Notes: a model not told the origin generated them from the sequence alone. A stretch of 64,000 nucleotides of DNA from Candidatus Poribacteria bacterium (GCA_022822785.1 JAJEAL010000013.1:9118-73117), one strand, 5' to 3'. Counted from the stretch's first letter, positions 17,232 through 58,293 are shown. Numbers and translations: made by a program.

Positions 17232-18404
17232 ATGAACGTACACGAATATCAAGCGAAACAGATTCTACAAGCACATGGGGTAAACGTTCAACGCGGCGAA
17301 GTGGCCTTCACCTCTGATGAAGCAGAGACGATTGCTCGGGAATTGAATTGCCCACTGTATATCGTCAAAGCACAAATCCACGCAGGCGGGCGGGGAAAGG
17401 GAGGCGGCGTTAAGCTGGCAAAGACCCCCGAAGAGGTGAAGGAACATGCAGATGCCATCCTTGGTATGCAGCTGGTTACCCCCCAAACAGGACCTGAGGG
17501 CAAGCTAGTCCGCAAGGTGTTGGTTGCTGAAGCTAGCGATATTGAAAGAGAACTATACCTCGGTATGGTGATTGATCGGACGGACTCACGACTAGTCGTA
17601 ATGGCCAGCGAAGAGGGCGGCGTAGATATTGAGGAAGTCGCCGCGACTCATCCTGAGAAGATTCTCAAGCAAACTATTGATCCAGCGATTGGCTTGCCTC
17701 CTTTCCAAGCGCGGACACTCGCCTACGACCTGAATATCCCACGCGAATTGGTCAACAAGGCAGCGGATTTGATGATTGGCTTGTACAATGCCTTTGTCGG
17801 TTCCGACTGCTCGCTTGCCGAGATCAACCCACTCGCCATCACGAAGACCGATGAGGGGCAGGATATAGTTGCCCTTGATGCCAAACTCAATTTCGATGAC
17901 AACGCACTTTGGCAGCATGAAGCAATTAGCGCCATGCGGGATCCAAACGAAGAGGATGCCCGTGAACTTGAAGCAGGAGAGTCGGGCTTGAGCTATATCA
18001 GTCTCGACGGAAATATCGGGTGTATGGTCAATGGAGCGGGGCTTGCGATGGCGACGATGGATCTCATCCAGCTGCACGGCGGGGAGCCCGCAAATTTCCT
18101 TGATGTCGGTGGCGGTGCGACAACGGAAACCGTTACGCATGCTTTTCGTCTCATTCTTGCAGACGAAAAGGTGCAGGCGGTCCTCGTCAACATATTTGGT
18201 GGTATCATGCAGTGCGACGTAATCGCTAACGGGATTATTGAAGCGGTTAAGCAGGTGGATTTGACAGTTCCGTTAGTTGTACGCTTGGAAGGAACAAATG
18301 TGGAATTGGGAAAGCAGATTCTTGCTGATTCCGGCTTGAACCTGATTGCCGCTGACGGACTTTCGGGGGCAGCACAAAAAGCGGTACAAGCGGTAGCGAA
18401 CTAA
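17232..18404 (+). CDS. sucC: Succinyl-CoA ligase beta subunit
   Basis: [56 protein letters not shown]. Confidence 0.97.
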
Positions 18405-18520
18405 GTTCAACATTTACATCTTTATGCCTATGAGCGTTTGTATCCCGATCCATTGGGAACTTCACTAACTGTCACATTCATGAGACATAACCGTGGCAGA
18501 AGTCACAGAGATGCACGCCG

Positions 18521-19729
18521 TTGATAGGAAAATGGATGACAGACAAACTCGGACTACACGATTTAGATGTTGCAGGCAAGCGGGTTTTAGTGCGTGTTGA
18601 TTTCAATGTACCGATGGATGGGAAGCAAATAACTGATGATACACGCATCCGTGCATCCCTTCCCACGGTTTTGGAGCTTATCCGGGGCGGCGCAAGAATT
18701 ATCTTGGCTACGCACCTCGGACGTCCCAAAGGTTTCGATCCGATTTTATCCACAGAACCGCTCGCGGTCGCCCTCAGCAAATTGCTGGGGCAACGGGTTA
18801 GGCATGTAGTTGATTGTGTCGGAGTTGAGGTCGAGGGCGTTGTTTCCGAACTCCGTGTGGGGGAGGTGCTGCTGCTTGAAAACGTCCGTTTCTATGAAGA
18901 AGAAACGAAGAATGACGCAGAATTTGCGACAAAACTCGCATCTCTCGCGGATCTCTATGTCAACGACGCTTTTGGCGCGGCGCACCGTGCACACGCTTCA
19001 ACTGAAGGGGTAACGCACTATTTCGATCAGTGCGCTGCGGGCTTGCTGATGGAAAGGGAAATTGATCATCTCGGCGGAGCACTTCGCAATCCAGCGCGTC
19101 CCTTTGTTGCGATTCTTGGTGGTGCAAAGATTTCGGACAAAATCGACGTGATTGAGAACCTTCTCGACAAGGTCGATCAATTCATCATTGGCGGTGGTAT
19201 GGCGTATACCTTCCTCAAAGCACAGGGATTGCCGATTGGAAATTCAATTGTGGAGCTCGATAAGATTAACTTAGCGCATGAGTTGCTACAGAAAGCGTCG
19301 GACCGGAATCTAACCATCCATCTTCCGCAAGACCATATCGTTGGTAGGGAATTTGATCGGAATACCGAATTACAAGTTATTTCTAGTCAGGAGATCCCCG
19401 ACGGTTGGAGCGGTTTTGATATTGGTCCCGAAACTGTCGCAAAATTCAGTGAAATTATCAACACGGCAAAAACGATTATCTGGAACGGCCCGTTGGGGGT
19501 TTATGAGTTTGAACCGTTTGCGGAAGGTACGCTTGAGATCGCGAGACGGGTTGCTGAATCGGAAGCTGTTAGCATCGTTGGAGGAGGGGACTGTGTCGCT
19601 GCAGTGCATCAAGCGGGCGTCGCGGATCGGATAACACATATCTCTACCGGCGGCGGCGCATCATTGGAATTTCTTGAAGGAAAACAGTTACCCGGGATTG
19701 AAGCATTGACAGACAAGGTTGGTCAATGA
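18521..19729 (+). CDS. pgk: Phosphoglycerate kinase (start possibly 18533)
   Basis: [54 protein letters not shown]. Confidence 0.97.
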
Positions 19730-19782
19730 AGATCTATTCTTCACATACACCTTAAAATCTGGCGAACAACAAGGAAGCTAAG

Positions 19783-21069
19783 ATGATAACGTACTTGATA
19801 CGCGTGATGATTATCGCATGTGTGGGATTGATTCCTCTGATTGGATGCTCAGGTGAAGAAGATGTATCTCCTGAAGATGAAAATCTTGAAATGTCTCTGG
19901 AAGAAGAGACCCCAGAGGTCGCTGATGGGTGTGCAATTTTAGGAAAGCCTGCTGATTTCACCGATAATGCGCTGTCCGATGCCAATGCAAAGTTTGGTTT
20001 TAAGCTACTCAGCGAACTCTATAATCAAAAACCCAACAACAACGTTTTTATCTCCCCGTTAAGTATTTCAATTGCCTTGACAATGACCTACAATGGCGCT
20101 TTAGGGAAAACAAAACAAGCAATGGAAAAGACGCTAGAAATCGAGGGGATGGAGCTGCAGGCGGTCAACCAAGCTAACGCACAGTTACGAGAAATCCTCA
20201 AGAGCGCAGATCCCCAGATTGAACTTGCCATTGCCAACTCGATCTGGATACGGAACACATTTGATGAAGTAAATCCCGATTTCCTTGACCGAAATGACAG
20301 ATTCTTTGGCGCAGAGATTGCTTCGTTTGATTTTGACGATCCGCAAACAGTAGAGACCATCAACCAATGGGTCAACACAAACACACAGGGTAAAATCACG
20401 GAAATTCTGGGCAAAATTGAGAATCACGAAGTTATGTTCCTGATTAATGCGATCTATTTTAAGGGGGGCTGGAAAGGAAAATTCGACGCATCAAAAACAC
20501 AGGATGGCGTTTTCCATCTGTTGGATGGCGGTGAGAAGCAGTTGCCAATGATGTCCCATACCTGCAATTATTCGTATCTTCGGACAGAAAGCTTTCGAGC
20601 TGTTGGCTTACCTTACGGGGAAGGGCGAGTGAGCATGTATATTTTCCTGCCGGAGCCTTCTTCCAATCTTGATGATTTTCTTGAGGAGCTAAACGCCGAG
20701 AACTGGGAGAACTGGCTGTCGCGATTTTGGAATGAACCGGATTTGAAACTGACAATGCCTCGATTTAGACTAGAGTATGAAATGCTTCTCAATAACGCGC
20801 TCAAAGCACTCGGCATGGAAATTGCTTTTGTTCCGTTCGTAGCCAATCTTGAAGGCATTGCGCCTCTTCTGTACATTGAAAAAGTTATACACAAAACTTT
20901 TTTGGAGGTCAACGAAGAAGGCACCGAAGCTGCTGCTGTAACGTTGGTTGGTCCGCCACCAGCGAGCAGTCCGCAGCCCTTTGCTGTAAATCGTCCCTTC
21001 TTCTTCACTATTCATGATAATTGGACGAACACAATACTGTTCATGGGAATTATCGTCGAACCGATGTAG
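19783..21069 (+). CDS. Serpin lipoprotein 1
   Basis: LIGC lipobox; FISPLSI, NAIYFKG, EEGTEAAA hinge, NRPFFF, LFMG. Confidence 0.93.
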   Translation: MITYLIRVMIIACVGLIPLIGCSGEEDVSPEDENLEMSLEEETPEVADGCAILGKPADFTDNALSDANAKFGFKLLSELYNQKPNNNVFISPLSISIALTMTYNGALGKTKQAMEKTLEIEGMELQAVNQANAQLREILKSADPQIELAIANSIWIRNTFDEVNPDFLDRNDRFFGAEIASFDFDDPQTVETINQWVNTNTQGKITEILGKIENHEVMFLINAIYFKGGWKGKFDASKTQDGVFHLLDGGEKQLPMMSHTCNYSYLRTESFRAVGLPYGEGRVSMYIFLPEPSSNLDDFLEELNAENWENWLSRFWNEPDLKLTMPRFRLEYEMLLNNALKALGMEIAFVPFVANLEGIAPLLYIEKVIHKTFLEVNEEGTEAAAVTLVGPPPASSPQPFAVNRPFFFTIHDNWTNTILFMGIIVEPM

Positions 21070-21121
21070 ATTGCCAAACTTCGTCAATGGATTATAGAGG
21101 GCATTACATAAGGAAGAGGAC

Positions 21122-22336
21122 ATGAAAAATTATCAAATTGGTATAATGGGCACAGTGTTGTTGTGTCTGTCAGGATGTTTCGACATTGATGCTACAAGGA
21201 ACATCATTCGTGACGCATTAGAAGCCACCGATGATACGGATGTTTCAAGTGTTGCTTCTGCTAACACACGATTTGGGTTCAAGCTGCTTCACGATCTTCA
21301 GGAACGAGACTCAGGCGGGAATATATTCATCTCTCCATTAAGTATCTCCATCGCGCTGACGATGACCTACAACGGCGCGGTTGGAGAAACCGAGCGTACC
21401 ATGGCGGAAGTTCTGGAGATAGATGGGTTAGACTTATCAACGATTAATAATTCTAACAAGGCATTACGAAACAGCCTTGAAAACCCTGATCCCAAGGTTG
21501 AAATCTCGATCGCAAATTCGATCTGGTATCGTCAGGGGATGGTATTCAATCCCGACTTCTTAGAACGGAATCGCTCATTTTTTGGAGCGATGGTGGCTGC
21601 GCTTGATTTTAGTTCACCGCAAGGGACGGGAACCATCAACGAATGGGTGGATACAAACACGAACGGCAAAATCCAAAAAATCGTCGATAGGATTAACCCG
21701 CAAACACTGCTCTTTCTGATTAACGCCATCTACTTTAAGGGGAATTGGCAGGATAAGTTCGATCCGTCGAGAACGCGGCAGGGCACTTTTCATCTGTCGG
21801 ATGGGAGTGAGAAGCCGGCACAGATGATGCGTCGAGAGGGAGAGTACCCATATTTCCGTGGCGAGAATTTTGAGGCAACGAGTTTACCGTATGGCGATGG
21901 ACGGTTGAGTATGTATATTTTCTTACCGAATCGTGATTCCAATCTGAATGAATTTTTGAGAAATTTAAACGAGGAAAATTGGGAGGGTTGGATATCACAG
22001 TTACAGGATAGACGGCATGAAATGGTGCTTCCCCGTTTCAAATTGGAGTACGAAGTAAGCCTTAACGACACACTCGAAACACTTGGAATGGGAATTGCTT
22101 TCGGTGGCGGCGCCGATTTTAGCGGTATGGGTCCTAGCCTTTTTATTAGTGAGGTGAAGCATAAAACCTTCGTGAAAGTCAACGAAGAAGGAACGGAAGC
22201 GGCGGCTGTTACTGCTGTCGTAGGCGTTAAGTCTTTGCCACCAGCATTCAGAGTAGACCGTCCCTTCTTTTTCGCCATTTATGACGCTGAAACGGAGACT
22301 ATACTGTTCATGGGAACCGTCACCGAGCCGATGTAG
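21122..22336 (+). CDS. Serpin lipoprotein 2
   Basis: LSGC lipobox; same serpin motifs; RCL EEGTEAAAVTAVVGVKSLPP. Confidence 0.93.
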   Translation: MKNYQIGIMGTVLLCLSGCFDIDATRNIIRDALEATDDTDVSSVASANTRFGFKLLHDLQERDSGGNIFISPLSISIALTMTYNGAVGETERTMAEVLEIDGLDLSTINNSNKALRNSLENPDPKVEISIANSIWYRQGMVFNPDFLERNRSFFGAMVAALDFSSPQGTGTINEWVDTNTNGKIQKIVDRINPQTLLFLINAIYFKGNWQDKFDPSRTRQGTFHLSDGSEKPAQMMRREGEYPYFRGENFEATSLPYGDGRLSMYIFLPNRDSNLNEFLRNLNEENWEGWISQLQDRRHEMVLPRFKLEYEVSLNDTLETLGMGIAFGGGADFSGMGPSLFISEVKHKTFVKVNEEGTEAAAVTAVVGVKSLPPAFRVDRPFFFAIYDAETETILFMGTVTEPM

Positions 22337-22418
22337 TTAGCCGGTAATTCGATCACACCAGGTGAAGAAAATCTATATGTTAAAAGCACAATGATATCTC
22401 ACAGTCACTCAAGCTTGT

Positions 22419-22460
22419 AGTCCTGACAGACAGGGCCGGTTAATGAGTCCTGTTTTTTCT
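22419..22460 (+). terminator. Intrinsic terminator with an alternative (anti-terminator-like) pairing, between serpins 2 and 3
   Basis: ACAGGGC/GTCCTGT stem followed by a T-tract; a second AGTCCTG copy at 22419-22425 can pair with the same CAGGGC. Confidence 0.55.
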
Positions 22461-22497
22461 TTATGTTCTAAAATCTGGTAACGATTGAAAGGCTAAA

Positions 22498-23733
22498 ATG
22501 AGAAATGACTGGACTCGTTTAATTCTTATCGGATATGTAGGTGTAGTGATACTCTGTTTTCTCAGTTGTTCTGGCAGTGATAACCTAACAGATGCCATGA
22601 ACGGTGTATCGGCAACTATCGAGGATCCAGATTTGGCAAGCCTTGCTTCCGCTAACACAGAATTTGGCGTCAAGTTGCTTCAAGATTTGCGAGAACGAAA
22701 ACCCAATACAAATATCTTCATCTCTCCATTGAGCATTTCAATTGCGTTGACCATGACCTTTAACGGCTCGGTTGGAGAAACGGCACGTGCTATGGCAGAA
22801 GTGCTAGCGATAGACATGTTGGACCGAAACGCAGTTAATCGTTCCAACATGACATTACGAGAAAGCCTCAGCAGCCGCGGACCAAAGGTTGAAATTTCGA
22901 TAGCGAACTCAATTTGGTACCGCCAAGATGTGGAACTCAACCTCGACTTTCTAGAGCGTAATCGCCAATTTTTTGAAGCGGAAATTGCCTCACTGGATTT
23001 TGCCGCCTCGCACGCAACAGAAATCATCAACGAATGGGTTGGCACAAACACGAATGGCAAGATTGAGAAAATCATTGACGAGATTGACCCGCTAACATTG
23101 CTTTTACTGATGAACGCCATCTATTTCAAGGGAGGCTGGCAGGATAAGTTCGATAAGTCACAAACACGGGAGGAGATTTTCTATCTATCGGATGGAAGCA
23201 CGAAACCGGTACAGATGATGCACCGGGAAGGAGTATATCCACACTTTCGCGGAGCGAACTTCGAGGCGGCGCGCTTAACCTACGGTGATGGAGACATTAG
23301 CATGTATATTTTTCTCCCCAACCAGAACTCCAACCTCAATGAATTTCTGGACGGTTTTAACGCGGAAAACTGGAAAAACTGGCTGCCACAGTTTTCTCCC
23401 GTACGGATAGACAGTATGATGATACTTCCTCGTTTCAAACTGGAATACGAAGTACAACTCAATGAGCCCCTCAAGGCAATGGGGATGGAAATTGCATTCG
23501 GTGACAGTGCAGATTTTAGCGGCATGGGCCATGGTCTTTCTATCAGTGAGGTGAGACATAAAACGTTCATAGAGGTAAATGAAGAAGGCACGGAGGCAGC
23601 CGCAGTCACTGTTGTTGCTCTCGCCGAGTCTGCCCCGCCGGTCTTTCGGGTAGATCGTCCTTTCTTCTTTACCATTTATGATGCCAAAACGCAGACTATG
23701 TTATTCATCGGAATTGTTACGGAACCGATGTAG
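22498..23733 (+). CDS. Serpin lipoprotein 3
   Basis: FLSC lipobox; serpin motifs; RCL EEGTEAAAVTVVALAESAPP. Confidence 0.93.
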   Translation: MRNDWTRLILIGYVGVVILCFLSCSGSDNLTDAMNGVSATIEDPDLASLASANTEFGVKLLQDLRERKPNTNIFISPLSISIALTMTFNGSVGETARAMAEVLAIDMLDRNAVNRSNMTLRESLSSRGPKVEISIANSIWYRQDVELNLDFLERNRQFFEAEIASLDFAASHATEIINEWVGTNTNGKIEKIIDEIDPLTLLLLMNAIYFKGGWQDKFDKSQTREEIFYLSDGSTKPVQMMHREGVYPHFRGANFEAARLTYGDGDISMYIFLPNQNSNLNEFLDGFNAENWKNWLPQFSPVRIDSMMILPRFKLEYEVQLNEPLKAMGMEIAFGDSADFSGMGHGLSISEVRHKTFIEVNEEGTEAAAVTVVALAESAPPVFRVDRPFFFTIYDAKTQTMLFIGIVTEPM

Positions 23734-23772
23734 GTAGTAGGAAATTTAGTCGCGCACAGCTAATGGAGGCGT

Positions 23773-24119
23773 ATGGCTACTGAGCCTTTGCCAAGGCTGG
23801 ATTCCGACACGGAAATTCGGCAGAAGATATCGACCTATTGCAGGTGCCCGATTTCATGGTCATGATTAAAGAATTTGAGGGCTTAGAGGTGAGAAGTTTC
23901 ATTACGATGCGGAATCAACGGAGGTAAGGCACTCAGAAAAACTGGATGGCGGTTCGACAAGAGCTACTGTACTATACGAAAGGGAATCCCGATTTCACTG
24001 TTATTTATAGGGATATACACAAAATTTTGCGTGGCTATTATAAAACAGTGGGCGGGAAACGAGTGGAAAATTTGGAGCGGATAAGAAAAAGATCGGAAAG
24101 TGACGAACTATACAGATAA
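23773..24119 (+). pseudogene. Decayed site-specific (N4/N6) DNA methyltransferase-like remnant
   Basis: GGAGG RBS + MATEPLPRLDSDTEIRQ, frameshift, then RSFITMRNQRR*GTQKNWMAVRQELLYYTKGNP...LRGYYK..ENLER with an in-frame TAA at 23925. Family assignment is from recalled sequence similarity. Confidence 0.55.
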
Positions 24120-24218
24120 TTTTGAGAAACGGATTGACGATGATAGCAGAGATACCTTCAGCAGTCTAGGTTAAATAAGGAATAATATTCTACCAATTAA
24201 AGAGGAGCAAATCCGGCA

Positions 24219-25652
24219 ATGAGAGACAAAATCACACCCCGTAGTGAGGATTATTCAGAGTGGTACACCGAAGTGATTCGAGAGGCGGAGCTAGCCGATT
24301 ACGCCCCGGTGCGCGGATGTATGGTCATTCGCCCCTATGGTTATGAACTTTGGGAAAATGTGAAGGCGGGGTTAGATCGGCGGTTCAAGGAGACGGGCCA
24401 CGAAAATGCGTATTTTCCGCTGTTTGTGCCGATGAGCTTTATTGAGAAGGAAGCACAGCATGTCGAAGGTTTTGCGCCAGAATTAGCGGTCGTTACGCAC
24501 GGCGGCGGTAAAGAATTAGAAGATCCGCTCGTAGTGCGCCCCACCTCAGAAACGGTAATCGGATACATGTACAGTCAATGGATTCAGTCCTATCGAGATC
24601 TGCCCGTACTGATCAACCAGTGGGCGAACGTCGTACGGTGGGAACTACGCACCCGCTTATTTCTGCGTACGATGGAGTTTCTCTGGCAGGAGGGACATAC
24701 TGCCCATGCCACCGCGGAAGAAGCACAGGAAGAAACGTTACGAATGTTGGATGTATACGCCGATTTCGCTGTGAACGATGCCGCTATCCCAGTCATTCCC
24801 GGCCGCAAGAGTGACAGCGAGAAGTTTCCCGGAGCAGACGCTTCCTACAGTATTGAAGCCATGATGGGAGATCGCCGGGCATTGCAGTCAGGTACGTCGC
24901 ATAACCTTGGACAAAACTTTGCCAAAGCGTTCGACATTCAGTATCAGGACGCGAATGGGACGCAGCAACACTGCTGGACGACCAGTTGGGGTGTGAGCAC
25001 ACGAATGGTTGGCGCAATCATTATGGCTCACGGCGATGACCAAGGGCTGGTCTTGCCGCCGCGTTTGGCACCCACACAGGTAGTGGTCGTACCGATATAT
25101 CGGAAAGACACCGAACGAAGTACAGTGATGGAAGCAACCGAAAAAATTGAAGCTATGCTAGGACAGAACGTACGGTTGAAGGTGGATCAGCGTGACGAGT
25201 ACTCGCCGGGCTGGAAGTTCAACGAGTGGGAGCTCAAGGGGGTGCCGTTACGGATAGAGATTGGACCGAGAGATATTGCAAAAGACCAGGTGGTACTTGC
25301 CCGTCGCGATGTACCGGGACGAGAGGGCAAATCGTTTGTTCCATTAGAGGAACTGGCTGCTATCGTCCCGGATACGCTCACGGATATCCAGGATAGTTTG
25401 CTGGCGCGGGCTACCGAATTCCGCGACACCAATATATCGGAACCGTCCGACTACGACTCATTGCGCGAAACAGTGGCAGAAGGCTTCGCCCGTGCGTGGT
25501 GGTGTGGGGATGTTGCTTGCGAGGATAAGGTCAAAAATGACACTAAAGCGACGACACGCTGTATCCCTTCGGATCAACCCGGCGGCAATGGGGCTTGTAT
25601 TGTGTGTGGCGAACAAGCTGAGGAGATTGCTATCTTTGCGCGGGCTTACTAA
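24219..25652 (+). CDS. proS: Proline--tRNA ligase (archaeal/eukaryote-like family, C-terminal Zn domain)
   Basis: RPTSET, QWANVVRWE, FLRTMEFLWQEGHT, SHNLGQNF, WGVSTR, C-terminal ARAY. Confidence 0.97.
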   Translation: MRDKITPRSEDYSEWYTEVIREAELADYAPVRGCMVIRPYGYELWENVKAGLDRRFKETGHENAYFPLFVPMSFIEKEAQHVEGFAPELAVVTHGGGKELEDPLVVRPTSETVIGYMYSQWIQSYRDLPVLINQWANVVRWELRTRLFLRTMEFLWQEGHTAHATAEEAQEETLRMLDVYADFAVNDAAIPVIPGRKSDSEKFPGADASYSIEAMMGDRRALQSGTSHNLGQNFAKAFDIQYQDANGTQQHCWTTSWGVSTRMVGAIIMAHGDDQGLVLPPRLAPTQVVVVPIYRKDTERSTVMEATEKIEAMLGQNVRLKVDQRDEYSPGWKFNEWELKGVPLRIEIGPRDIAKDQVVLARRDVPGREGKSFVPLEELAAIVPDTLTDIQDSLLARATEFRDTNISEPSDYDSLRETVAEGFARAWWCGDVACEDKVKNDTKATTRCIPSDQPGGNGACIVCGEQAEEIAIFARAY

Positions 25653-27477: not shown

Positions 27478-28323
27478 CTATCGGCGATAACCCGCTAACT
27501 CTTCCAGACGACGGATGCGTTCGTCCATTGGTGGGTGGGTGCTGAAAAGACCTGCTATGCCGCCGCGCAACGGGTTGACAATGAAGAGATGGGACGTTGC
27601 TTCATTTCCTCGCATCGGGTGCATTTCAACGCCACGTTCAAGTCGGCGAAGCGCATTTGCCAATGCCAACGGATTGCCACAGATTTCTGCGCCACCACGG
27701 TCTGCCGCATATTCACGGGAACGGGAAATTGCAAACTGAATAATCATTGCAGCGATAGGAGCAACAATAATTAAAAATAAAAAACCGAAGATTCCACCGC
27801 TATCTTCCTCGTCATTTCCACCAAAACCACCAAACAGTGCTGCCCATTGCGCCATGTTCGCGATCATCATGACTGCGCCCGCAATTGTGGCAACAATACT
27901 ACTTATCAGAATGTCACGGTGCTTGATATGTGCTAGTTCATGTCCAATAACACCCGCCAATTCATCACGCGATAAGATGCGCATAATTCCGTCCGTTGCG
28001 GCGACCGCCGCGTGCTTTGGATTTCTGCCGGTAGCAAATGCATTTGGCATATCGGTTGGAATCGTATAAACCCGTGGCATCGGTAAACCAGATCTTTCAG
28101 TCTGTTGTTTGACAATCTGATATAATTCACTGTTGGGACTAACTTCCTGCGCTCTATACATTGATAAGACAATCCTATCACTAAACCAGTATGAGCCAAA
28201 GTTCATGATAGCTGCCAAGATGAGGGCGATTGCCATGCCAACTTCCCCACCTAATATGTTGCCAATGAGCATGAGCAGGGCAGTCAACGCAATTAAGAGT
28301 ATTCCAGTCTTTAGGATGTTCAT
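27478..28323 (-). CDS. htpX: Zinc metalloprotease HtpX
   Basis: [15 protein letters not shown] (HExxH), [15 protein letters not shown]. Confidence 0.96.
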
Positions 28324-42482: not shown

Positions 42483-43232
42483 TTAGCTAGCCTCAAAATT
42501 TTCAGCGTCTGGCCATGTTATATAAAGCTGGTGCACAGTCATCTCAGATTGTTGTCCCTGGCCGTATGGAATGCGGTCCAAATCGCAAGCCATGTATTGA
42601 AGATAACAATCCTTATTGAAAAACTGTTCATCAATCAACCCTTCTTTACTCAACGAAACAAAGAGCGCAGCAGCACGTGCCTGACAATTGAGAGAACGTT
42701 GGGGATTAAAAACTATATCCGAAAATCCTTCAAATGGTTCGAGCTCTTCTTTTGCCAGATTCGGTTTCTTTTGCCATAGCGCAGTCAGATATAACCAGTC
42801 ATAGAAAGCCGTTTGGGGGTCAATAGGAAAATCTTCGCCAAAGAAATTAAAAGCGATTAGTTTTCCTGAATTCCGCAACCGCTCATCGGTTTTCGCCGCT
42901 CGACTCGATACTGAATACAGATCTTGATAGGGCCCACCGTTTTCAAACACCTTGCTTCCTTGATAGGCACATTCCACGCTCACCTTCTGTCCATTTGGCG
43001 TTTTTAAAGGGAGATTAAAAGCACTCAATGAAACACCCAAGACTGAAGTAGATTTTCCTGAGATTTCCAAAATTGGAGCAATACCCTTATCTTCAGCGGC
43101 CCTATGTAGGGAAGCGATAGATTTTTGCAGTCGCGATTTTGCAAAACCAGGATACCATCGAAACTCTATATCGACCTCTTTAACATAAGGAAAATCACTG
43201 AAATTAGGGGTAAAAATAGGGCGTTTTGCCAT
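42483..43232 (-). CDS. DarT-associated NADAR-like antitoxin (DUF6977-like)
   Basis: MAKRPIF, W.PGFAKS..QKSI, LEISGKS, SAFNL, VECAYQGSKVFENGGP, TAFYDWLY, FNPQRSLNCQAR; directly downstream of darT. Confidence 0.75.
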   Translation of the reverse strand: MAKRPIFTPNFSDFPYVKEVDIEFRWYPGFAKSRLQKSIASLHRAAEDKGIAPILEISGKSTSVLGVSLSAFNLPLKTPNGQKVSVECAYQGSKVFENGGPYQDLYSVSSRAAKTDERLRNSGKLIAFNFFGEDFPIDPQTAFYDWLYLTALWQKKPNLAKEELEPFEGFSDIVFNPQRSLNCQARAAALFVSLSKEGLIDEQFFNKDCYLQYMACDLDRIPYGQGQQSEMTVHQLYITWPDAENFEAS

Positions 43233-43243
43233 TCTCTCAACTC

Positions 43244-43963
43244 CTAAAAAGGCATATCATCGTCAACCTCAAGTATATCGTCGTTGTTCAAATTAGCAGA
43301 CTGCCATTTTTTGTAATCACATCTATAGCGGAAATATTCTTGATTGGAGCAGTATCGTCGCCCATCAGAAAACGTTGGAGAATTAGAAGACCACCATCGA
43401 TCAAAAGCAATATTATCCCAAAAATGGACTTCGTTGATATACCGATCAGAAATTGCGTTAAACACTAGAACTTCTGCTTGAGGATTTGTGGGATAACCAC
43501 TGGGTATTTTTAAAGATTGACGGTTGATGGTACGGTAATCTTCTACAAAAACGCCGTTTAACGCATCAGGCTTCTTTCTGTCCTCCAATAAAATATGACG
43601 AACAACATTAGATGATGCGTTTTCTTGACAAAACGCACAATCCAACTCCCATAACACCTTTGCATCCAGAAGCAAAACAACCCACTGAGAATGTTCGATA
43701 CGTGTTCTATAGCTATAGAACATTTTGTAGTTTGGAAAACTGATGCTTAGACAAATTGCATCTTTATGGCCGTCAAATCGATCTGGATCATTAAACAAAA
43801 ACTGCTGTCCGCTTGTTTCCAGATAACTACGGCTCAATAAACCCTTTTGCAGAATACTAGATAGATTGTCGATCCGGGTAAAATGGCAAAGCGTTATTAT
43901 ATCTCGCTCAATACAAATCTGTTGTATTTGGCGTTTCCTCTGGCGTCTCCTCTTTGCGTACAT
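43244..43963 (-). CDS. darT: DarT (DUF4433) ssDNA ADP-ribosyltransferase toxin
   Basis: HFTRIDNL.SIL..GLLSR, ND..R.DG...ICLSISFPNYKMF, ENASS, QAEVLV catalytic Glu. Confidence 0.85.
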   Translation of the reverse strand: MYAKRRRQRKRQIQQICIERDIITLCHFTRIDNLSSILQKGLLSRSYLETSGQQFLFNDPDRFDGHKDAICLSISFPNYKMFYSYRTRIEHSQWVVLLLDAKVLWELDCAFCQENASSNVVRHILLEDRKKPDALNGVFVEDYRTINRQSLKIPSGYPTNPQAEVLVFNAISDRYINEVHFWDNIAFDRWWSSNSPTFSDGRRYCSNQEYFRYRCDYKKWQSANLNNDDILEVDDDMPF

Positions 43964-49259: not shown

Positions 49260-51005
49260 ATGCACAATGCGGTGGGAAGGTCACTAGTACAGCTGATGCG
49301 AGATTCAAATCTAATCTCTGAAAATGAGCATCAGCAAGTTCTTGAGGAAATTGAGAACACAGGTGTTACTCACACCCAAGCACTCTCAAAGTTTGTGAAC
49401 ACCAAGTCCCTGACGCTCGCTAAACAGGCTCTGGACTACGGCGTATCGTGCGTTTTGCTCGAAGATATTGTTCCAGCGAATGAAGCAACCGATCGGGTAT
49501 CAGCGAGCTTCGCCTACCGGAACAAGATCTTGCCAATTCGCCTAAGCGAAAACACGCTTACCGTGGCGATGGCGGATGCGTTGGATATCACCCTGATTGA
49601 TGAGATGCGACTGGTTACAGAATGCGAGATTGAGCCCGTGCTTGCGGATGAAGGAGATATCGACGCAGCGATTATTCGTGCCTACGGCAAAACTGCCGCC
49701 GCCATCCTCAGCGAAGGGATCAAGGGGCCCGTTGGCGCGGTCGCCACACTTGAACGCGAAACGATTGATGACTTTGGTATCAGCGAACATGACTTAAGCC
49801 AAGATCCAACGGTTATCAACGCTGTAGATCAGATTATCATTGACGCTGTTCGACTGGGTGCCAGTGACATCCATATTGAGCCCTTCCCCGGTGAACTCAA
49901 AATCCGTTATCGGATTGACGGCGTTTTGGAGGATCAACCCAACCCCCCGCCCCATCTCCAGTCAGCAATTACCTCCCGTATCAAGATAATGGCGAACATG
50001 AACGTAGCAGAACGTCGCCGTCCTCTGGATGGAAAAATTGGCGTGACCGTTCAGAGCGTTGGCAACCGTCAGATTGACTTGCGTGTTTCGACTGTTCCTA
50101 CGGTGCACGGTGAAAGTGTCGTTCTCCGAATTCTTGATAGGCAATCAATCTCATTCGGTTTAGAGCAACTCGGTTTGTTAGAGGACAATCTAGATCAGTT
50201 TTACCGAATGATTCAGAAACCGCACGGCATTATCTTAGCAACGGGACCAACAGGCAGTGGTAAGACAACAACACTATACGCTTGTTTGAAAGAGATTAAT
50301 ACCCCAGAGGTCAAAATTATCACGATAGAGGATCCGGTTGAGTATGAATTGGAAGGGATAAACCAGATCCAGGTGAATCCGGAGATAAATGTGACCTTTG
50401 CAGCGGGGTTGAGACATATCCTACGTCAAGACCCAGATAAAGTATTAGTTGGTGAAATTCGAGACTATGAAACAGCAGAGATGGGGATCCACACCTCTTT
50501 GACGGGACACCTCGTCTTCAGTTCACTCCATACCAATGATGCAGCGAGTGCGGTCACTCGGTTGGTGGATATGGGGGTAGAACCGTATTTGGTTGCCTCA
50601 ACGTTGGAGGGCATTATCGCTCAGCGGCTTGCGCGTCGGGTGTGTGCACACTGCTATGAGATGTACACGCCGGAACCGGAGCGCGTCCAAGACCTACTTG
50701 GCAGCCAAACTGGAGTGATTACTGATGATCTGCTTATCCCGCGTGCGGTCGGTTGCAAAGAGTGTCGGAACCGTGGATACAAGGGGCGGATCGGTCTCTT
50801 TGAGGTCATCCTGATGAGCGAGGAATTACGTGAGATGACCATCCAAAGTGCCTCCGCTAACCAACTAAAACGGACCGCGATGCGGCTAGGGATGAAAACA
50901 TTGCGAGAGGATGGCTGGAGAAAAGTGGTTGCTGGTTATACAACGATTGAGGAAGTTGTACGGCTGACACAAGAGGATGAGTTTGACATCGGCGAAGTAG
51001 TATGA
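49260..51005 (+). CDS. gspE: Type II secretion ATPase GspE/PilB family
   Basis: ASDIHIEP, GPTGSGKTTTLY, EDPVEY, LRQDPD..VGEIRD, TGHLVFSSLHTN, tetracysteine motif. Confidence 0.93.
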   Translation: MHNAVGRSLVQLMRDSNLISENEHQQVLEEIENTGVTHTQALSKFVNTKSLTLAKQALDYGVSCVLLEDIVPANEATDRVSASFAYRNKILPIRLSENTLTVAMADALDITLIDEMRLVTECEIEPVLADEGDIDAAIIRAYGKTAAAILSEGIKGPVGAVATLERETIDDFGISEHDLSQDPTVINAVDQIIIDAVRLGASDIHIEPFPGELKIRYRIDGVLEDQPNPPPHLQSAITSRIKIMANMNVAERRRPLDGKIGVTVQSVGNRQIDLRVSTVPTVHGESVVLRILDRQSISFGLEQLGLLEDNLDQFYRMIQKPHGIILATGPTGSGKTTTLYACLKEINTPEVKIITIEDPVEYELEGINQIQVNPEINVTFAAGLRHILRQDPDKVLVGEIRDYETAEMGIHTSLTGHLVFSSLHTNDAASAVTRLVDMGVEPYLVASTLEGIIAQRLARRVCAHCYEMYTPEPERVQDLLGSQTGVITDDLLIPRAVGCKECRNRGYKGRIGLFEVILMSEELREMTIQSASANQLKRTAMRLGMKTLREDGWRKVVAGYTTIEEVVRLTQEDEFDIGEVV

Positions 51006-51053
51006 GATGTGAAGTGTGATGCGTAAATTACGTATGACCAGAGAAAGATACTG

Positions 51054-52277
51054 ATGCCAAGATTCCGCTACGAAGCACTGACCAATACCGGAACGGTAGT
51101 TACCAACACACAGGAGGCAAGCAGCAAGGCTGAGCTTGTGTCCAGCCTGAAGGTGATGGGATATTGGCCCACGAGCATCGTTGAGGACACCGCAGAAACT
51201 GAGGGGCGGCAAGCAATTAAGATTCCATTCCTTGCCCCCCGGATTAAGCCGGCGGAGGTCGAGTTTTTCACGTATCAGATGGCAACGTTGATTAACGCCT
51301 ATGTTCCGTTATCTCGTGCTTTGGAGGTGACCCTAGAACAGATTACCAACCTTGAGCTCAAGCGGGTAGTCGAACAGGTCAAATACGATGTCGAACACGG
51401 CTCGCCACTTAATGATGCGCTCGCACAGCATCCGCGAGTGTTTTCCGATCTGTATGTGAACATGGTAAAAGCAGGGGAAGCGGGTGGTGTGCTTGGTGTA
51501 GTGTTGGAACGTCTCGCCGAGTTTGCCGAACGACAGCGACTCCTGAAAACGGAGGTGACCTCTGCATTGTTCTATCCCGCCATTTTGCTGGGGCTAAGCA
51601 TCGGTGCCGTGGCGGTTTTAATGACCTTTGTTATTCCTAAGTTCACCGGCATGTTCGCCGAATTGGACGTTGAATTGCCGGGCCCAACACAATTTCTTAT
51701 CAGTATCACGAATTTCCTGAGTGTTTACTGGTGGATAATTTCAATCGCGATTATTGGCAGTGTTTTCGCGCTCAGACAGTACATTCGTACAGATACCGGA
51801 CGATTGGCTTTTGATCGCGTGAAGATTCAACTTCCCATCATTGGGGTAATCTTCAGCAACTTTGCGCTGGTACGCTTTACACGAACAATGGCAACACTGC
51901 TTGAAAACGGTGTTATACTTCTACCAGCCCTTCGCGTTGTTAAAGACACCATCGGAAATTCGGTCTACAGTAATGCAGTCGCAACCGCGGAAGAAGAAAT
52001 TGAACGGGGTTCAACCTTGTCGCGAGAATTGGAACGGAGTGCTGCCTTCCCTCCTCTACTCACCCATATGGTCGCGATTGGTGAGGAATCCGGCGATCCT
52101 GAACAGATGTTGACGAAACTAGCGATATATTACGATTTAGAAATCAAGAAAAATCTAGAACGATTGACTAATTCAATTGGGCCATTGGTGATTTTATTTA
52201 TGGGGTTGTTGATTGGGTTTATCGCCGTCGCGATGATACTCCCAATCTTTGAAGCTAGCACATCGCTCGGCGGATAA
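51054..52277 (+). CDS. gspF: Inner-membrane platform protein GspF/PilC
   Basis: YVNMVKAGEAGG.L..VLERLA, ALFYP, GEESG. Confidence 0.92.
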   Translation: MPRFRYEALTNTGTVVTNTQEASSKAELVSSLKVMGYWPTSIVEDTAETEGRQAIKIPFLAPRIKPAEVEFFTYQMATLINAYVPLSRALEVTLEQITNLELKRVVEQVKYDVEHGSPLNDALAQHPRVFSDLYVNMVKAGEAGGVLGVVLERLAEFAERQRLLKTEVTSALFYPAILLGLSIGAVAVLMTFVIPKFTGMFAELDVELPGPTQFLISITNFLSVYWWIISIAIIGSVFALRQYIRTDTGRLAFDRVKIQLPIIGVIFSNFALVRFTRTMATLLENGVILLPALRVVKDTIGNSVYSNAVATAEEEIERGSTLSRELERSAAFPPLLTHMVAIGEESGDPEQMLTKLAIYYDLEIKKNLERLTNSIGPLVILFMGLLIGFIAVAMILPIFEASTSLGG

Positions 52278-52313
52278 CTATTACCCTGTTATCATCAAGA
52301 TAGGAGGTAAAAT

Positions 52314-52763
52314 ATGCTCAAACGGTTAAAATCAGACGAATCGGGCTTGACACTTATCGAAATTACGATTGTGATTGTCATTCTCGGTCTATTGGCAAGT
52401 TTTATTGCACCGCGGGTTTTGAACGCGCCAGATAAGGCGAAAGTCGCCAAAGCAAGGGTGGAGATTAGTGCTTTGGAAAACGCACTAGAGATGTACGCGA
52501 TAGAGGTCGGGGACTATCCGACGGCAGAGCAAAATTTACAGGCACTTTGGCGAATGCCCAACCCGGAACCTGAAAATTGGAACGGTCCTTATATCACGAA
52601 GCCAACGTTCACAGATCCGTGGGGAAATACTTACATCTATGTCTATCCCGGTCTTCACGAAGGCTATGATTACGACCTCTACTCGCTTGGCAAGGACGGT
52701 AAGGAAGGCGGACAGGAATTCGACGCTGATATCACAAACTGGATAGCGGAAATAACCGAGTAA
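52314..52763 (+). CDS. gspG: Major pseudopilin GspG
   Basis: G|LTLIEI prepilin site, WNGPY, DPWG..Y.Y..PG, SLGKDGKEGG. Confidence 0.92.
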   Translation: MLKRLKSDESGLTLIEITIVIVILGLLASFIAPRVLNAPDKAKVAKARVEISALENALEMYAIEVGDYPTAEQNLQALWRMPNPEPENWNGPYITKPTFTDPWGNTYIYVYPGLHEGYDYDLYSLGKDGKEGGQEFDADITNWIAEITE

Positions 52764-52779
52764 GACGGATTCGTGCGCC

Positions 52780-53676
52780 TTGTCGTTCTTTATTGACCGA
52801 ACATCCGTTTCACTCCTTGAAGGTGAAGGCATGTATCTGCCTAGACGGATTTTTTGTTCAGACAGGGATTCGTCCCGAAAATACTCGGCGTGTAGTGTGA
52901 CAGGCTTGGCTCGCTTAATCCGGCGCGTTCGACAGCGTCGCTGGAATCTTCTTAATCCCGCAGAGGATCATGGTTGCTATTTGTCTGTGATTCGACGCTT
53001 GTTTGACCGTGTTAGACGGGGTTCATACCCGCTTACTTCAAACGGCTTCACGTTGATTGAGGTCATGATTGTGCTTGCGTTAATCGCAATCCTTTCCTCT
53101 ATCGCAATGCCCTCTCTACGCGGATTCGCCACATCAACGCGCTTGAAATCCACCGCTCACGCCATCCGAGATATGCTCAACTTTGCGCGAGATATGGCAA
53201 TCACTGAGCGCGCAGCTCACCTTGTTGTGTTTGATTTGGCAGCGAATCGTTACTGGCTTGCCACTAGCGAAACCTTCAATCCCGCCGATCCGTCCACGCC
53301 TTTAACCGCGAGCTCATTAAGTTCCCAACCTGCTGCCCAACAGGCACCATTAGCTCAAGAAACAACCGCATTGCAGCAAACGTCCCCTGTACGAACCAAT
53401 GCGATCTTGGGTATACCACAGAAACCGGCTCATAATGTTAGTTTAGCGCGTATGATAACGAGTCACAACTTTCAGACCCATCAGATCGATACCGGTGTGG
53501 ATTATATTTACTTCTCTCCAACAGGATCATCGGAGGATACCGCGTTGTATATTCAAGATCGACGCGGGAAAGCAATGGCTGTTACAGTTGAGAACGCAAC
53601 AGGCCGGATCCGCCTGCAAAAAATCAGCTCGCAGCAACTTGATACGTTAGGATTGGCAGATGAATCGTCTGAATAA
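52780..53676 (+). CDS. Minor pseudopilin, GspH/FimT-like (start uncertain)
   Basis: G|FTLIEVMIV prepilin site followed by a hydrophobic helix. Confidence 0.75.
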   Translation: MSFFIDRTSVSLLEGEGMYLPRRIFCSDRDSSRKYSACSVTGLARLIRRVRQRRWNLLNPAEDHGCYLSVIRRLFDRVRRGSYPLTSNGFTLIEVMIVLALIAILSSIAMPSLRGFATSTRLKSTAHAIRDMLNFARDMAITERAAHLVVFDLAANRYWLATSETFNPADPSTPLTASSLSSQPAAQQAPLAQETTALQQTSPVRTNAILGIPQKPAHNVSLARMITSHNFQTHQIDTGVDYIYFSPTGSSEDTALYIQDRRGKAMAVTVENATGRIRLQKISSQQLDTLGLADESSE

Positions 53677-54118
53677 TTTAATCTCACCTGTCCACCGATT
53701 CGTGGACGACAAAAGCGGTTTCACTTTAATCGAAATCGTGGTTGCGCTCGCTATTTTGTCATTAGCCCTGCCGGCGCTACTCCGTTCCTTTACAGAAGCG
53801 GCAAAAGGACAAGCATTAACAGAAAATAGAACAACTGCCTTGTATCTCCTTAAATTTCGGATGGCGGCAATTGAGGCAGAAGGCTATCCGGATATCGGTG
53901 AAGAGGATGGCGAATTTGGAGAGGACTCACGGTTTCGTTGGCATTCAGACGTTCAAGACGTAGAATCGGAGGAAATTGAAGGGCTGCGATTGGTTACCAT
54001 CACTGTGACATGGCAAGAACGTGGAAACGAGCGGGTAATTTCGGCGAGCACATATCTCGCAGACCGGCAGATACCACAACCAGAGCAGGCGCAGGGCGGT
54101 CAACAAGGAGGGAACTGA
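53660..54118 (+). CDS. Minor pseudopilin, GspI-like
   Basis: G|FTLIEIVVAL; VTITVTW. Confidence 0.75.
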   Translation: MNRLNNLISPVHRFVDDKSGFTLIEIVVALAILSLALPALLRSFTEAAKGQALTENRTTALYLLKFRMAAIEAEGYPDIGEEDGEFGEDSRFRWHSDVQDVESEEIEGLRLVTITVTWQERGNERVISASTYLADRQIPQPEQAQGGQQGGN

Positions 54119-55020
54119 TGAAGTCTCGCATTTCACGGCTTACACTCCGCGCTGATGGTTTTACCCTTCTCGAACTACTCGTCGCTGTCAGTATCTTGGT
54201 CATTATTGGTGGTGCCTCATATACGGCGTTCAATGCTGCACTTGATATTTACCGAAAATCCGAATCGCGGATTGTGATGACACAGAAATGTCGGACTGCG
54301 TTAGAGCGCGTTGCCACAGATTTGAGCAACCTGCAAGCTGTGCAAGGCGATGAATCACTTCTCATTGTGTCGCAGGATAACCCGCTCGAAGAGGGGGTGG
54401 ACCGGGATGTAATTAGTTTCGTAACGTTGATCCACACCGATCCTGACCCATTCTTGGCTGAGTTGAATGCGGCGAACCAAACGGTTATAGCCGACGGGGC
54501 AGGTAATTCAGAGGAATTGGTAAGCGATGTTCAACGGGTCGCCTACTATATTGGAATGGATACCGCCGGACAGATTGCAAATGAGGAAGATGATGAAATC
54601 GAAGTAGGGGGACAGATGTTGACCCCAGATAGCGGAGCGGAGGGAGGGTTCGCCCTTTTCCGCCTTTCAACCACGGCTCTGGAGGTAGAAACCGTTATCC
54701 AACCGTTGCTTGAATCCGAAACGCTCCCGACAGAGGATGAAGATGGCAATCCAATCTACGTGAATATTGTTCCGATCATCGACCAGGTTATCTCCTTTGA
54801 TGTAAGATATTACGACGGTGAGGAGTGGTACGAATCATGGGATGATACCGAAATGATTCCAGCATCTGTTGTTGCTTGGGTGACAGTCACGACTGAAAAT
54901 GACCGGCAGCAGAATGTTACCGCTAGTACAATAACTCAATCGACCATGATTTATCTACCAATGAGCGCGAACTTCAGCGAACAGACGGCGGGTGAAGGCG
55001 CTGCTAGTTCAGGTGGTTAA
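54118..55020 (+). CDS. Minor pseudopilin, GspJ-like
   Basis: G|FTLLELLVAV; YYDGEEWYESWD..IPASV; ATG overlaps the upstream TGA. Confidence 0.75.
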   Translation: MKSRISRLTLRADGFTLLELLVAVSILVIIGGASYTAFNAALDIYRKSESRIVMTQKCRTALERVATDLSNLQAVQGDESLLIVSQDNPLEEGVDRDVISFVTLIHTDPDPFLAELNAANQTVIADGAGNSEELVSDVQRVAYYIGMDTAGQIANEEDDEIEVGGQMLTPDSGAEGGFALFRLSTTALEVETVIQPLLESETLPTEDEDGNPIYVNIVPIIDQVISFDVRYYDGEEWYESWDDTEMIPASVVAWVTVTTENDRQQNVTASTITQSTMIYLPMSANFSEQTAGEGAASSGG

Positions 55021-55043
55021 GGAAGTGGAGCAGAAAGGGAAGG

Positions 55044-56582: not shown

Positions 56583-56594
56583 GTGGAGAAGGTT

Positions 56595-58259: not shown

Positions 58260-58293
58260 GAAAAGACGCTGAGGAACAAAAGAGAGTTGACCA

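What the first reader, a model, noticed from the sequence alone, without database searches (positions are those of the whole stretch)
19783..23733. Tandem array of three lipoprotein serpins with diversified reactive-centre loops
Seen: three co-oriented paralogues, each with a lipobox and an intact inhibitory hinge (EEGTEAAAVT) but a different bait region: LVGPPPA-S (Ala codon 20962), AVVGVK-S (Lys codon 22229), VVALAE-S (Glu codon 23626). Known: the P1 residue sets serpin specificity, and surface serpins of host-associated bacteria (e.g. Tannerella miropin, Bifidobacterium serpin) block host proteases. Inference: a membrane-anchored panel against elastase-like, trypsin-like and acidic-P1 proteases. 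The Lys/Glu assignment assumes a loop one residue shorter than in alpha1-antitrypsin; with standard counting P1 would be Ser. The PPP bait of serpin 1 is odd.
Basis: partly seen in the sequence, partly recalled or inferred. Interest (0 to 1): 0.68.

Follow-up and report, generated by a model that had tools for sequence, protein, structure and literature searches.

The report
Three tethered serpins, sponge symbiont
A sponge-symbiont bacterium (Candidatus Poribacteria) carries three adjacent genes for membrane-tethered protease inhibitors (serpins) that share one scaffold but have different bait loops; they are real and probably functional, but they are new members of a kind already known from Tannerella miropin and from animal serpin clusters.

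Summary
Three co-oriented ORFs (19783-21069, 21122-22336, 22498-23733) are full-length serpins (Pfam E 1e-112 to 1e-120). All carry a lipoprotein-type signal and the hinge EEGTEAAAVT. The bait residues Ala394, Lys370 and Glu377 lie at the stated codons.

The genome is a Candidatus Poribacteria MAG from a sponge. These are its only serpins. The closest solved relative is miropin, the surface lipoprotein serpin of Tannerella.

Serpins occur in 138 of 168 poribacterial genomes, at 1-7 copies. In this genus they sit at a fixed site between pgk and proS.
- The Lys copy (S2) is the conserved core gene. Fifteen orthologues share an identical 13-residue loop, although their scaffolds are only 70-94% identical and 12 of the 13 codons vary synonymously.
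- The extra copies differ most just before an invariant Ser. Across 108 relatives that residue is T, K, E, A, R, V, D or Q, which supports it as P1.

A sponge metatranscriptome holds near-identical contigs of S1 and S2.

Most likely these are envelope-anchored suicide inhibitors with three specificities. Their targets (host, neighbouring microbes or the bacterium itself) are unknown.

Verdict: new members of a known kind, of moderate interest.

The parts
19783..21069 (+). Serpin S1 (428 aa), the divergent paralogue with bait LVGPPPA|SSPQPF (P1 Ala394, canonical 17-residue register)
   Evidence: ORF; Pfam Serpin E 4.4e-112. It is 51% identical to S2 and S3. Its clade is confined to close relatives. 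At least 17 protein clusters carry [LS]V[GS][PL]P[PT]A|S-x-P.
19783..19848 (+). S1 lipoprotein-type signal peptide ending in lipobox LIG-C22
   Evidence: Read from the sequence; the Cys is invariant in alignment A2; Lgt and LspA are present in the genome.
19849..19980 (+). S1 acidic, probably disordered tether (SGEEDVSPEDENLEMSLEEETPEVADGCAILGKPADFTDNALSD) with an S1-specific Cys51
   Evidence: pLDDT is below 50 for mature residues 1-27. The Cys51/Cys261 pair occurs only in S1-type sequences.
20914..20982 (+). S1 reactive-centre loop, P17 Glu378 to P6' Phe400; Ala394 codon at 20962
21122..22336 (+). Serpin S2 (404 aa), the conserved core copy with bait AVVGVK|SLPPAF
   Evidence: Pfam E 5.5e-120. 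Best PDB match is miropin 5ncs, E 5.6e-76. Fifteen orthologues have an identical 13-residue loop with scaffolds 70-94% identical, and 12 of 13 codons vary synonymously.
21122..21178 (+). S2 lipoprotein-type signal peptide ending in lipobox LSG-C19
22184..22249 (+). S2 reactive-centre loop, P17 Glu355 to Phe376; Lys370 codon at 22229
   Evidence: Lys370 aligns with miropin Lys368.
22429..22460 (+). Hairpin followed by U6 in the 161-bp S2-S3 spacer, a possible intrinsic terminator
   Evidence: Centroid fold. Its energy is not better than shuffles (z -0.2), so this is weak evidence.
22498..23733 (+). Serpin S3 (411 aa) with bait VVALAE|SAPPVF
   Evidence: Pfam E 5.6e-116. The scaffold is 68% identical to S2, but only 1 of 6 residues matches in P6-P1. 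Its nearest relative, L032, also has Glu before Ser.
22498..22569 (+). S3 lipoprotein-type signal peptide ending in FLS-C24 (Phe at -3)
23581..23646 (+). S3 reactive-centre loop, P17 Glu362 to Phe383; Glu377 codon at 23626
17232..19729 (+). Upstream housekeeping genes sucC and pgk, which mark the conserved insertion site
   Evidence: tblastn synteny in 30 loci.
24219..25652 (+). Downstream proS, the other conserved flank

Best explanation
The three genes encode miropin-like (bacterial Group T) inhibitory serpins of a sponge-symbiotic Candidatus Poribacteria bacterium.

Proposed mechanism (steps 1-3 are inferred):
1. Each protein is exported by Sec. It is lipidated on the lipobox Cys by Lgt and LspA, and held at a membrane by a 25-45-residue acidic flexible tether.
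2. A protease that attacks the exposed reactive-centre loop at the bond before the invariant Ser becomes an acyl-enzyme.
3. The loop then inserts into beta-sheet A, and the protease is trapped covalently on the cell envelope.

The copies offer different P1 residues: Ala behind a Pro-rich P4-P2 (S1), Lys (S2) and Glu (S3). Together they should cover three protease specificities.

S2 is the ancestral, vertically inherited core gene of the lineage. S1 and S3 are old tandem duplicates kept in a minority of genomes by birth-and-death evolution.

The most likely role is to protect the symbiont's envelope from exogenous proteases in the sponge mesohyl or in phagosomes, whether from the host or from neighbouring microbes.

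Shown here: the genes, the fold family, the hinge, the signals, the conservation pattern and weak evidence of transcription. Inferred: lipidation, topology, inhibition, the P1 register and the targets.
For: - Full-length serpin domains, 34-37% identical to miropin, which is the best PDB hit.
- The hinge EEGTEAAAV fits the inhibitory consensus ExGTEAAAA cited in 10.1101/2020.09.09.289108.
- The PROSITE-type serpin signature F-x-V-[DN]-R-P-F-F-F-x-I is present in all three.
- A lipobox-type signal is present in 109 of 109 family members, and Lgt and LspA are in the genome.
- The genome is a Poribacteria MAG from sponge metagenomes.
- Serpins occur in 138 of 168 genomes of the phylum, at a fixed sucC/pgk/proS site in 30 loci.
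- The S2 loop is under strong purifying selection. The S1 loop motif is also conserved in at least 17 clusters.
- Paralogue pairs diverge most in P6-P1. In L026 the scaffold is 91% identical but only 1 of 6 bait residues matches; bait pN is 0.58 against scaffold dN 0.04.
- The residue before the invariant Ser switches among T, K, E, A, R, V, D and Q, in both the 16- and 17-residue registers.
- Miropin uses Lys368, at the same aligned position as S2 Lys370, as its reactive residue, and it is a surface lipoprotein.
- Metatranscriptome contigs at least 99% identical cover S1 and S2, at a depth like that of sucC and pgk.
- The AF2 model threads P15-P6 as a strand in a loop-inserted serpin fold.
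Against: - There are no biochemical data.
- The location, periplasmic or on the surface, cannot be predicted.
- By canonical 17-residue counting, P1 of S2 and S3 would be Ser, not Lys or Glu.
- I know of no inhibitory serpin with prolines at P4-P2 as in S1. They could hinder full loop insertion and make S1 substrate-like.
- No target protease is linked in the genome.
- The RNA evidence rests on assembled contigs, whose depth is a poor measure and which may include carried-over DNA. S3 is only thinly covered.
- The AF2 model is in the relaxed state, so it says nothing about a metastable native state.
Confidence: 0.65

Rival explanations
1. The serpins are housekeeping regulators of the bacterium's own exported proteases. 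They face the periplasm and limit self-damage, rather than acting on host or foreign enzymes.
For: - The Lys-type loop is invariant across two genera, which suits a conserved endogenous target.
- The genes sit among housekeeping genes.
- The genome encodes 2 subtilases and about 12 trypsin-fold proteases.
- In another poribacterial family the serpins head a cluster that includes a Peptidase_MA_2 protein.
- For sponge Thaumarchaeota, serpins next to S8A proteases were proposed to regulate the cells' own proteases (PMC6790972).
- By default, diderm lipoproteins face the periplasm.
Against: - No serine protease gene lies next to the array in this genus.
- The neighbouring protease in the other family is a metalloprotease, which serpins do not normally inhibit.
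- Copy number and P1 vary between close relatives. That fits changing external targets better than a fixed internal one.
Confidence: 0.25
2. In S2 and S3 the scissile bond is the canonical one (17 residues from P17), so P1 is Ser in both. Lys and Glu are then P2 residues that only tune one shared specificity for small P1 residues (elastase- or subtilisin-like). The 'panel' would be much narrower than proposed.
For: - Canonical counting from the hinge gives Ser371 and Ser378.
- Miropin's canonical P1-P1' is Thr369-Ser370, one residue after its Lys.
- The Ser is invariant across the family.
Against: - In 65 relatives with 17-residue loops the same Ser-x-P-P motif follows position 17, so there it is P1'. 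K, E, T and R then occupy canonical P1.
- From my own knowledge, the motif aligns without gaps with alpha1-antitrypsin's P1'-P4' Ser-Ile-Pro-Pro.
- Miropin is inhibited at Lys368-Thr369 in the 16-residue register by trypsin-like enzymes and Kgp.
Confidence: 0.2
3. S1 is not an inhibitor. The Pro-Pro-Pro bait prevents full loop insertion, so S1 acts as a decoy substrate, a binding protein or a chaperone-like serpin.
For: - P4-P2 prolines are unknown to me in characterised inhibitory serpins.
- S1 has a distinctive N-terminal extension and a private Cys pair.
- It sits on a long branch.
- One relative carries an interrupted copy.
Against: - The hinge is intact and identical to that of S2 and S3.
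- The loop motif x-P-P-A|S-x-P is conserved in at least 17 clusters that are 80-89% identical.
- P2 Pro is tolerated in alpha1-antitrypsin (own knowledge).
- The gene is covered by a metatranscriptome contig.
Confidence: 0.25

Closest known systems
Miropin of Tannerella forsythia (PDB 5NCS native; 5NCT, 5NCU and 5NCW cleaved), bacterial Group T serpin
   Same: - It is the best sequence match among solved structures (E 5.6e-76) and the AF2 model is 34-37% identical to it.
- It has a lipoprotein signal.
- Its hinge is the same, EEGTEAAAVT.
- Its Lys lies 16 residues from P17, at the position that aligns with S2 Lys370.
- It comes from a host-associated bacterium.
   Different: - Miropin is a single gene that gains breadth by using three adjacent bonds in one loop. 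Here breadth would come from three genes with different loops.
- The poribacterial loops are 5 residues shorter on the P' side.
- Surface exposure and inhibition are proven for miropin but untested here.
- The host is a sponge, not a human.
Serpin expansions of sponge-symbiotic Thaumarchaeota (Ca. Nitrosospongia ianthellae with 15 genes, Cenarchaeum symbiosum; PMC6790972, PMC7848895)
   Same: These are multiple secreted serpins in sponge symbionts. They are rare or absent in free-living relatives and were proposed to counter host proteases or regulate the cells' own.
   Different: - They are archaeal and often lie next to S8A subtilases.
- They are not described as lipoproteins.
- The poribacterial array has no linked protease in this genus.
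Tandem serpin clusters of animals with divergent reactive centres (mammalian SERPINA1/A3 clusters; tick and squirrel serpin arrays, e.g. PMC12646145)
   Same: Both show tandem duplication, a conserved scaffold and hinge, divergence concentrated in the bait, and gene birth and death.
   Different: - This array is bacterial and lipid-anchored, with only 1-3 copies (up to 7 in the phylum).
- The duplicates in this window are old (dS saturated).
- One copy has a frozen loop.
Tandem lipoprotein serpins noted elsewhere in this scan (WOR-3, Fidelibacterota, Dehalococcoidia, Marinimicrobia, gut Bacillota)
   Same: The architecture is the same: adjacent lipoprotein serpins with diverged loops, and miropin or chloropin as the closest solved relative.
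   Different: - Several of those arrays are linked to ECF or sigma54 regulators. No regulator is linked here.
- Those entries are unchecked AI notes, used only as leads.

Membership tests
Serpin superfamily (Pfam PF00079) | Full-length match to the serpin domain above the curated cut-off | tested here: met
   375-401 bits against a cut-off of 27, covering profile positions 2-370 of 370, for all three proteins.
Serpin superfamily (Pfam PF00079) | Serpin fold | tested here: met
   The AF2 model of S1 has mean pLDDT 82 and pTM 0.83. Foldseek gives E 2e-40 and TM 0.8-0.95 to antithrombin, conserpin, tengpin and miropin.
Inhibitory serpins | Hinge consensus P17-P9 E-x-G-T-E-A-A-A-A, with small residues at P12-P9 and Thr/Ser at P14 | tested here: met
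   The hinge is EEGTEAAAV in all three, as in miropin. The consensus is quoted from 10.1101/2020.09.09.289108. P9 is Val here, as in miropin, rather than Ala.
Inhibitory serpins | Loop length of 16-17 residues from P17 to P1 | tested here: met
   S1 has 17 residues; S2 and S3 have 16 if P1 is Lys or Glu. The family splits 41 with 16 and 65 with 17.
Inhibitory serpins | Formation of an SDS-stable covalent complex and the stressed-to-relaxed transition | not testable with these tools
   This needs recombinant protein. The AF2 model only shows that the loop can be threaded as strand 4A.
Bacterial lipoproteins | Signal peptide with a positive n-region, a hydrophobic h-region and a lipobox [LVI][ASTVI][GAS]-C | tested here: met
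   S1 has LIG-C and S2 has LSG-C, both canonical. S3 has FLS-C, which fits the looser PROSITE-type pattern. The Cys is invariant in 50 of 50 aligned sequences and the signal is present in 109 of 109. No dedicated predictor (LipoP, SignalP) was available.
Bacterial lipoproteins | Processing machinery present (Lgt, LspA) | tested here: met
   PF01790 matches at E 2e-49 and PF01252 at E 2e-41 in the window's own genome.
Miropin-like surface serpins | Exposure on the outer face of the outer membrane | not testable with these tools
   For miropin this needed dot blots and flow cytometry. No sequence rule is known for Poribacteria.
Miropin-like surface serpins | Closest sequence relationship to miropin among characterised serpins | tested here: met
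   Miropin chains are ranks 1-4 in the PDB sequence search.
Serpin clusters with diversified reactive centres | The bait segment diverges faster than the scaffold between tandem paralogues | tested here: met
   P6-P1 falls in the top 1-9% of windows by mismatches in 8 of 9 pairs. Bait pN is 0.16-0.60 against scaffold dN 0.04-0.21. Family-wide entropy is only moderately raised.

The most novel reading that the evidence does not exclude
The poribacterial serpin locus may be a symbiosis determinant. Its frozen Lys-bait core copy would neutralise a conserved sponge trypsin-like protease of digestion or innate immunity. The accessory copies (Glu, Asp, Ala and Thr baits) would be gained, recombined and lost as lineages meet different host or neighbour proteases. 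The bait repertoire would then track host range and help explain why sponge cells do not digest these symbionts.
Probability: 0.25. Interest if true: 0.65.

Novelty: new member of a known kind. Interest (0 to 1): 0.4.

Why it matters
How sponges, which feed by phagocytosing bacteria, spare their dense resident symbionts is an open question. Eukaryote-like repeat proteins are the usual suspects. Poribacteria are dominant symbionts of high-microbial-abundance sponges. I found no paper in the searchable library that analyses their serpins. An envelope-anchored serpin that is nearly universal in this lineage and has a frozen Lys bait, plus variable accessory baits, is a concrete and cheap candidate to test. 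The proteins can be expressed without cultivating the organism and used as activity-based probes to pull target proteases out of sponge tissue. The molecular kind itself (lipoprotein serpins, tandem copies with different baits) is not new.

Tried and rejected
- Rfam scan of 19000-25000 found nothing.
- The sigma70 promoter and terminator scans were not above shuffled expectation, so no promoter is claimed. The hairpin after S2 is not more stable than shuffles.
- Family-wide column entropy did not single out the bait as the most variable segment (rank 61 of 353). I therefore dropped 'hypervariable RCL' in favour of the contrast between paralogues and orthologues.
- I looked for a linked target protease. 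None lies within 10 kb; the only peptidase nearby is an M48 metalloprotease at 27478-28323. The genome's S8 and trypsin-fold genes are on other contigs.
- The AF2 model came out in the relaxed, loop-inserted state: rmsd 1.2 to cleaved miropin against 5.3 to native miropin.
- Recent duplication or ongoing gene conversion within this window is rejected, because scaffold dS is 1.6-2.7.
- Horizontal acquisition is not supported. GC is 0.45-0.46 against about 0.48 around the array, the site is syntenic, and the gene is found across the phylum.
- A look-up of earlier scan notes by sequence found nothing.
Full report
**Observation.** The window holds three co-oriented ORFs at 19783-21069, 21122-22336 and 22498-23733.
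- Each is a full-length serpin: Pfam PF00079, 375-401 bits, profile positions 2-370 of 370.
- S2 and S3 are each 51% identical to S1. All three share the hinge EEGTEAAAVT and the C-terminal signature F-x-V-[DN]-R-P-F-F-F.
- Each protein starts with a short basic segment, a hydrophobic segment and [GS]-Cys: LIG-C22, LSG-C19 and FLS-C24. The genes have Shine-Dalgarno-like sequences and spacers of 52 and 161 bp.

**Organism and distribution.**
- The closest genome records are all 'Candidatus Poribacteria bacterium' MAGs. The sequence occurs at 99% identity or more in several sponge metagenomes.
- The assembly is 5.6 Mb and 96% complete. These three genes are its only serpins.
- Serpins occur in 37 of 41 related genomes and in 138 of 168 genomes of the phylum, but in only 13 of 26 genera. 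Copy number is 1-7.
- In the window's genus, counting the window's genome, 11 genomes have one copy, 5 have two, 3 have three and 1 has none.
- In 15 loci the order is phyH-sucC-pgk-[serpins]-proS-SBP. In a second set of 15 more distant loci it is sucC-[serpins](-pgk)-proS. The locus is therefore vertically inherited, and its copy number changes by local duplication and loss.
- One relative has an S1 orthologue interrupted by TAG, and another has a copy interrupted by TAA.
- One database protein, P0021, is a chimera: the first 90 residues are S1-like, the body is S2-like and the bait is new.
- In another poribacterial family (f2; loci L048 and L058) the serpins sit in a different conserved cluster: Oxidored_molyb, serpin(s), YfbK/VWA, Peptidase_MA_2, Metallophos, TPR.

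**Family anatomy.** I extracted 109 poribacterial serpins from the fetched loci.
- All have a hydrophobic segment ending in [GAS]-Cys; LFGC is the commonest form.
- Ninety-three of the 109 have no other cysteine.
- The own genome encodes Lgt and LspA.
- The hinge is nearly invariant: 0.25 bits against a scaffold mean of 1.13.
- A Ser followed by x-P-P is invariant after the bait.
- In 108 sequences the residue just before that Ser is T (50), K (32), E (15), A (4), R (3), V (2), D (1) or Q (1).
- The N-side of the loop is 16 residues long in 41 sequences, 17 in 65 and 19 in 2. K and E occur in both the 16- and 17-residue registers.
- The Ser-x-Pro-Pro motif matches alpha1-antitrypsin's P1'-P4' (my own knowledge). 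Together with the points above, this supports the residue before Ser as P1.
- In the phmmer alignment, S2 Lys370 lies on miropin's Lys in AVEMVKT. According to 10.1101/2025.09.05.674453, trypsin-like enzymes and Kgp attack miropin at Lys368-Thr369, the 16-residue register.

**Selection pattern.** I built a tree on the scaffold with the bait columns removed.
- S1 belongs to a long-branch clade confined to the closest relatives.
- S2 belongs to a broad Lys-bait group.
- S3 groups with L032, another Glu-bait copy. Glu-bait copies appear in several separate clades.
- Fifteen Lys-type proteins share the identical 13-residue loop TAVVGVKSLPPAF, although their scaffolds are only 70-94% identical. Twelve of the 13 codons vary synonymously without any amino-acid change. 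This is strong purifying selection.
- The S1 bait motif [LS]V[GS][PL]P[PT]A|S-x-P is kept in at least 17 protein clusters of 80-89% identity.
- Between tandem paralogues, P6-P1 is among the most diverged windows in 8 of 9 pairs. For S2 against S3 the scaffold is 68% identical and the bait matches at 1 of 6 residues. In L026 the scaffold is 91% identical and the bait matches at 1 of 6.
- Nei-Gojobori estimates give scaffold dN/dS of 0.08-0.16, with bait pN of 0.16-0.83.
- The window's own copies are old: dS is 1.6 for S2/S3 and 2.7 for S1/S2.

**Expression.** A sponge metatranscriptome holds contigs at least 99% identical that cover S1 (19905-20463) and S2 (21602-21904 and 21958-22424), with thin coverage of S3. 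Their depth is similar to that of sucC, pgk and proS. Contig depth is a poor measure and DNA carry-over is possible, so this is weak support for transcription. A hairpin plus U6 lies between S2 and S3, and no terminator is seen between pgk and S1.

**Structure.** An AF2 model of mature S1 has mean pLDDT 82 and pTM 0.83.
- It has a disordered N-terminal tether (residues 1-27) and a low-confidence segment at 370-380, which is the bait.
- It matches loop-inserted serpins best: latent antithrombin, latent conserpin, and cleaved miropin at rmsd 1.2 against 5.3 for native miropin.
- This confirms the fold and shows that P15-P6 can be threaded as strand 4A. It says nothing about the metastable native state.

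**Interpretation.** The best-supported reading is a set of envelope-anchored suicide inhibitors with three different P1 residues. S2 is the conserved core, and S1 and S3 are accessory copies.
- Whether they face the periplasm or the outside is unknown.
- The targets are unknown. No serine protease is linked.
- Published work on sponge Thaumarchaeota proposed the same two alternatives, host proteases or the symbiont's own proteases (PMC6790972 and PMC7848895).
- I favour exogenous targets because bait type and copy number vary among close relatives. The frozen Lys bait is equally compatible with a conserved endogenous target.
- The Pro-Pro-Pro of S1 is unusual and could make it a poorer inhibitor, but its conservation argues for function.

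**Novelty.** The kind is known.
- Miropin is a lipoprotein serpin of a host-associated bacterium.
- Tandem serpins with different baits are classic in animals.
- Notes from this scan list at least 24 similar bacterial cases. These are unchecked leads.
- NCBI already labels relatives 'serpin family protein'.
- New here: the poribacterial context, the near-universality in that lineage, the contrast between a frozen core bait and switching accessory baits, and the Pro-rich Ala bait. I found no paper that analyses poribacterial serpins.

Noticed in passing
window 19849-19980 and 20563-20565 (S1 Cys51 and Cys261): S1-type serpins alone carry a longer acidic linker with a conserved Cys (DGC) and a body Cys (HTCNYSY). 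The two cysteines are present together in all S1-type sequences and absent together in the near relatives P0021 and P0022. This suggests a disulfide that pins the linker to the body.
   Followed up: partly
protein P0021, from another poribacterial assembly: This is a chimeric serpin. Residues 1-90 are 73-89% identical to S1, the body is 67-97% identical to S2, and the bait AVDLTA|S is new. It is evidence of recombination between array members.
   Followed up: partly
G011:C32:64344-65426 and G004:C1:5032425-5033495: Serpin copies in two congeneric genomes are interrupted by a single TAG or TAA, consistent with gene loss from the array.
   Followed up: no
L048 4887-11651; L058 4870-12822: In another poribacterial family the serpins lie in a conserved cluster: molybdopterin oxidoreductase, serpin(s), YfbK-like VWA protein, Peptidase_MA_2, calcineurin-like phosphoesterase, TPR protein. 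L058 also has an S9 prolyl-oligopeptidase-family gene upstream.
   Followed up: partly
window 22429-22460: A hairpin followed by a U6 run lies in the S2-S3 spacer. RNA contig depth drops to 0 at 22492-22785 while the DNA runs still cover the stretch. S3 may be a separate, less expressed transcription unit.
   Followed up: partly
window 23734-24218: The S3-proS spacer is 485 bp, with only short ORFs (the longest is 57 aa, at 23946-24119). The corresponding spacer is 1-2 kb in several relatives. It may be a remnant of a lost gene.
   Followed up: no
protein P0023: This related serpin has a bait containing five consecutive Asp residues (AIEVDDDDDGPRIF) and an Asp-rich linker.
   Followed up: no
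window 42483-43963 and 49260-62955: Earlier notes on the same window report a DarT/NADAR-like module inside the complex I operon and a type II secretion cluster. Type II systems can export lipoproteins such as pullulanase to the cell surface (own knowledge). I found no link to the serpins.
   Followed up: no
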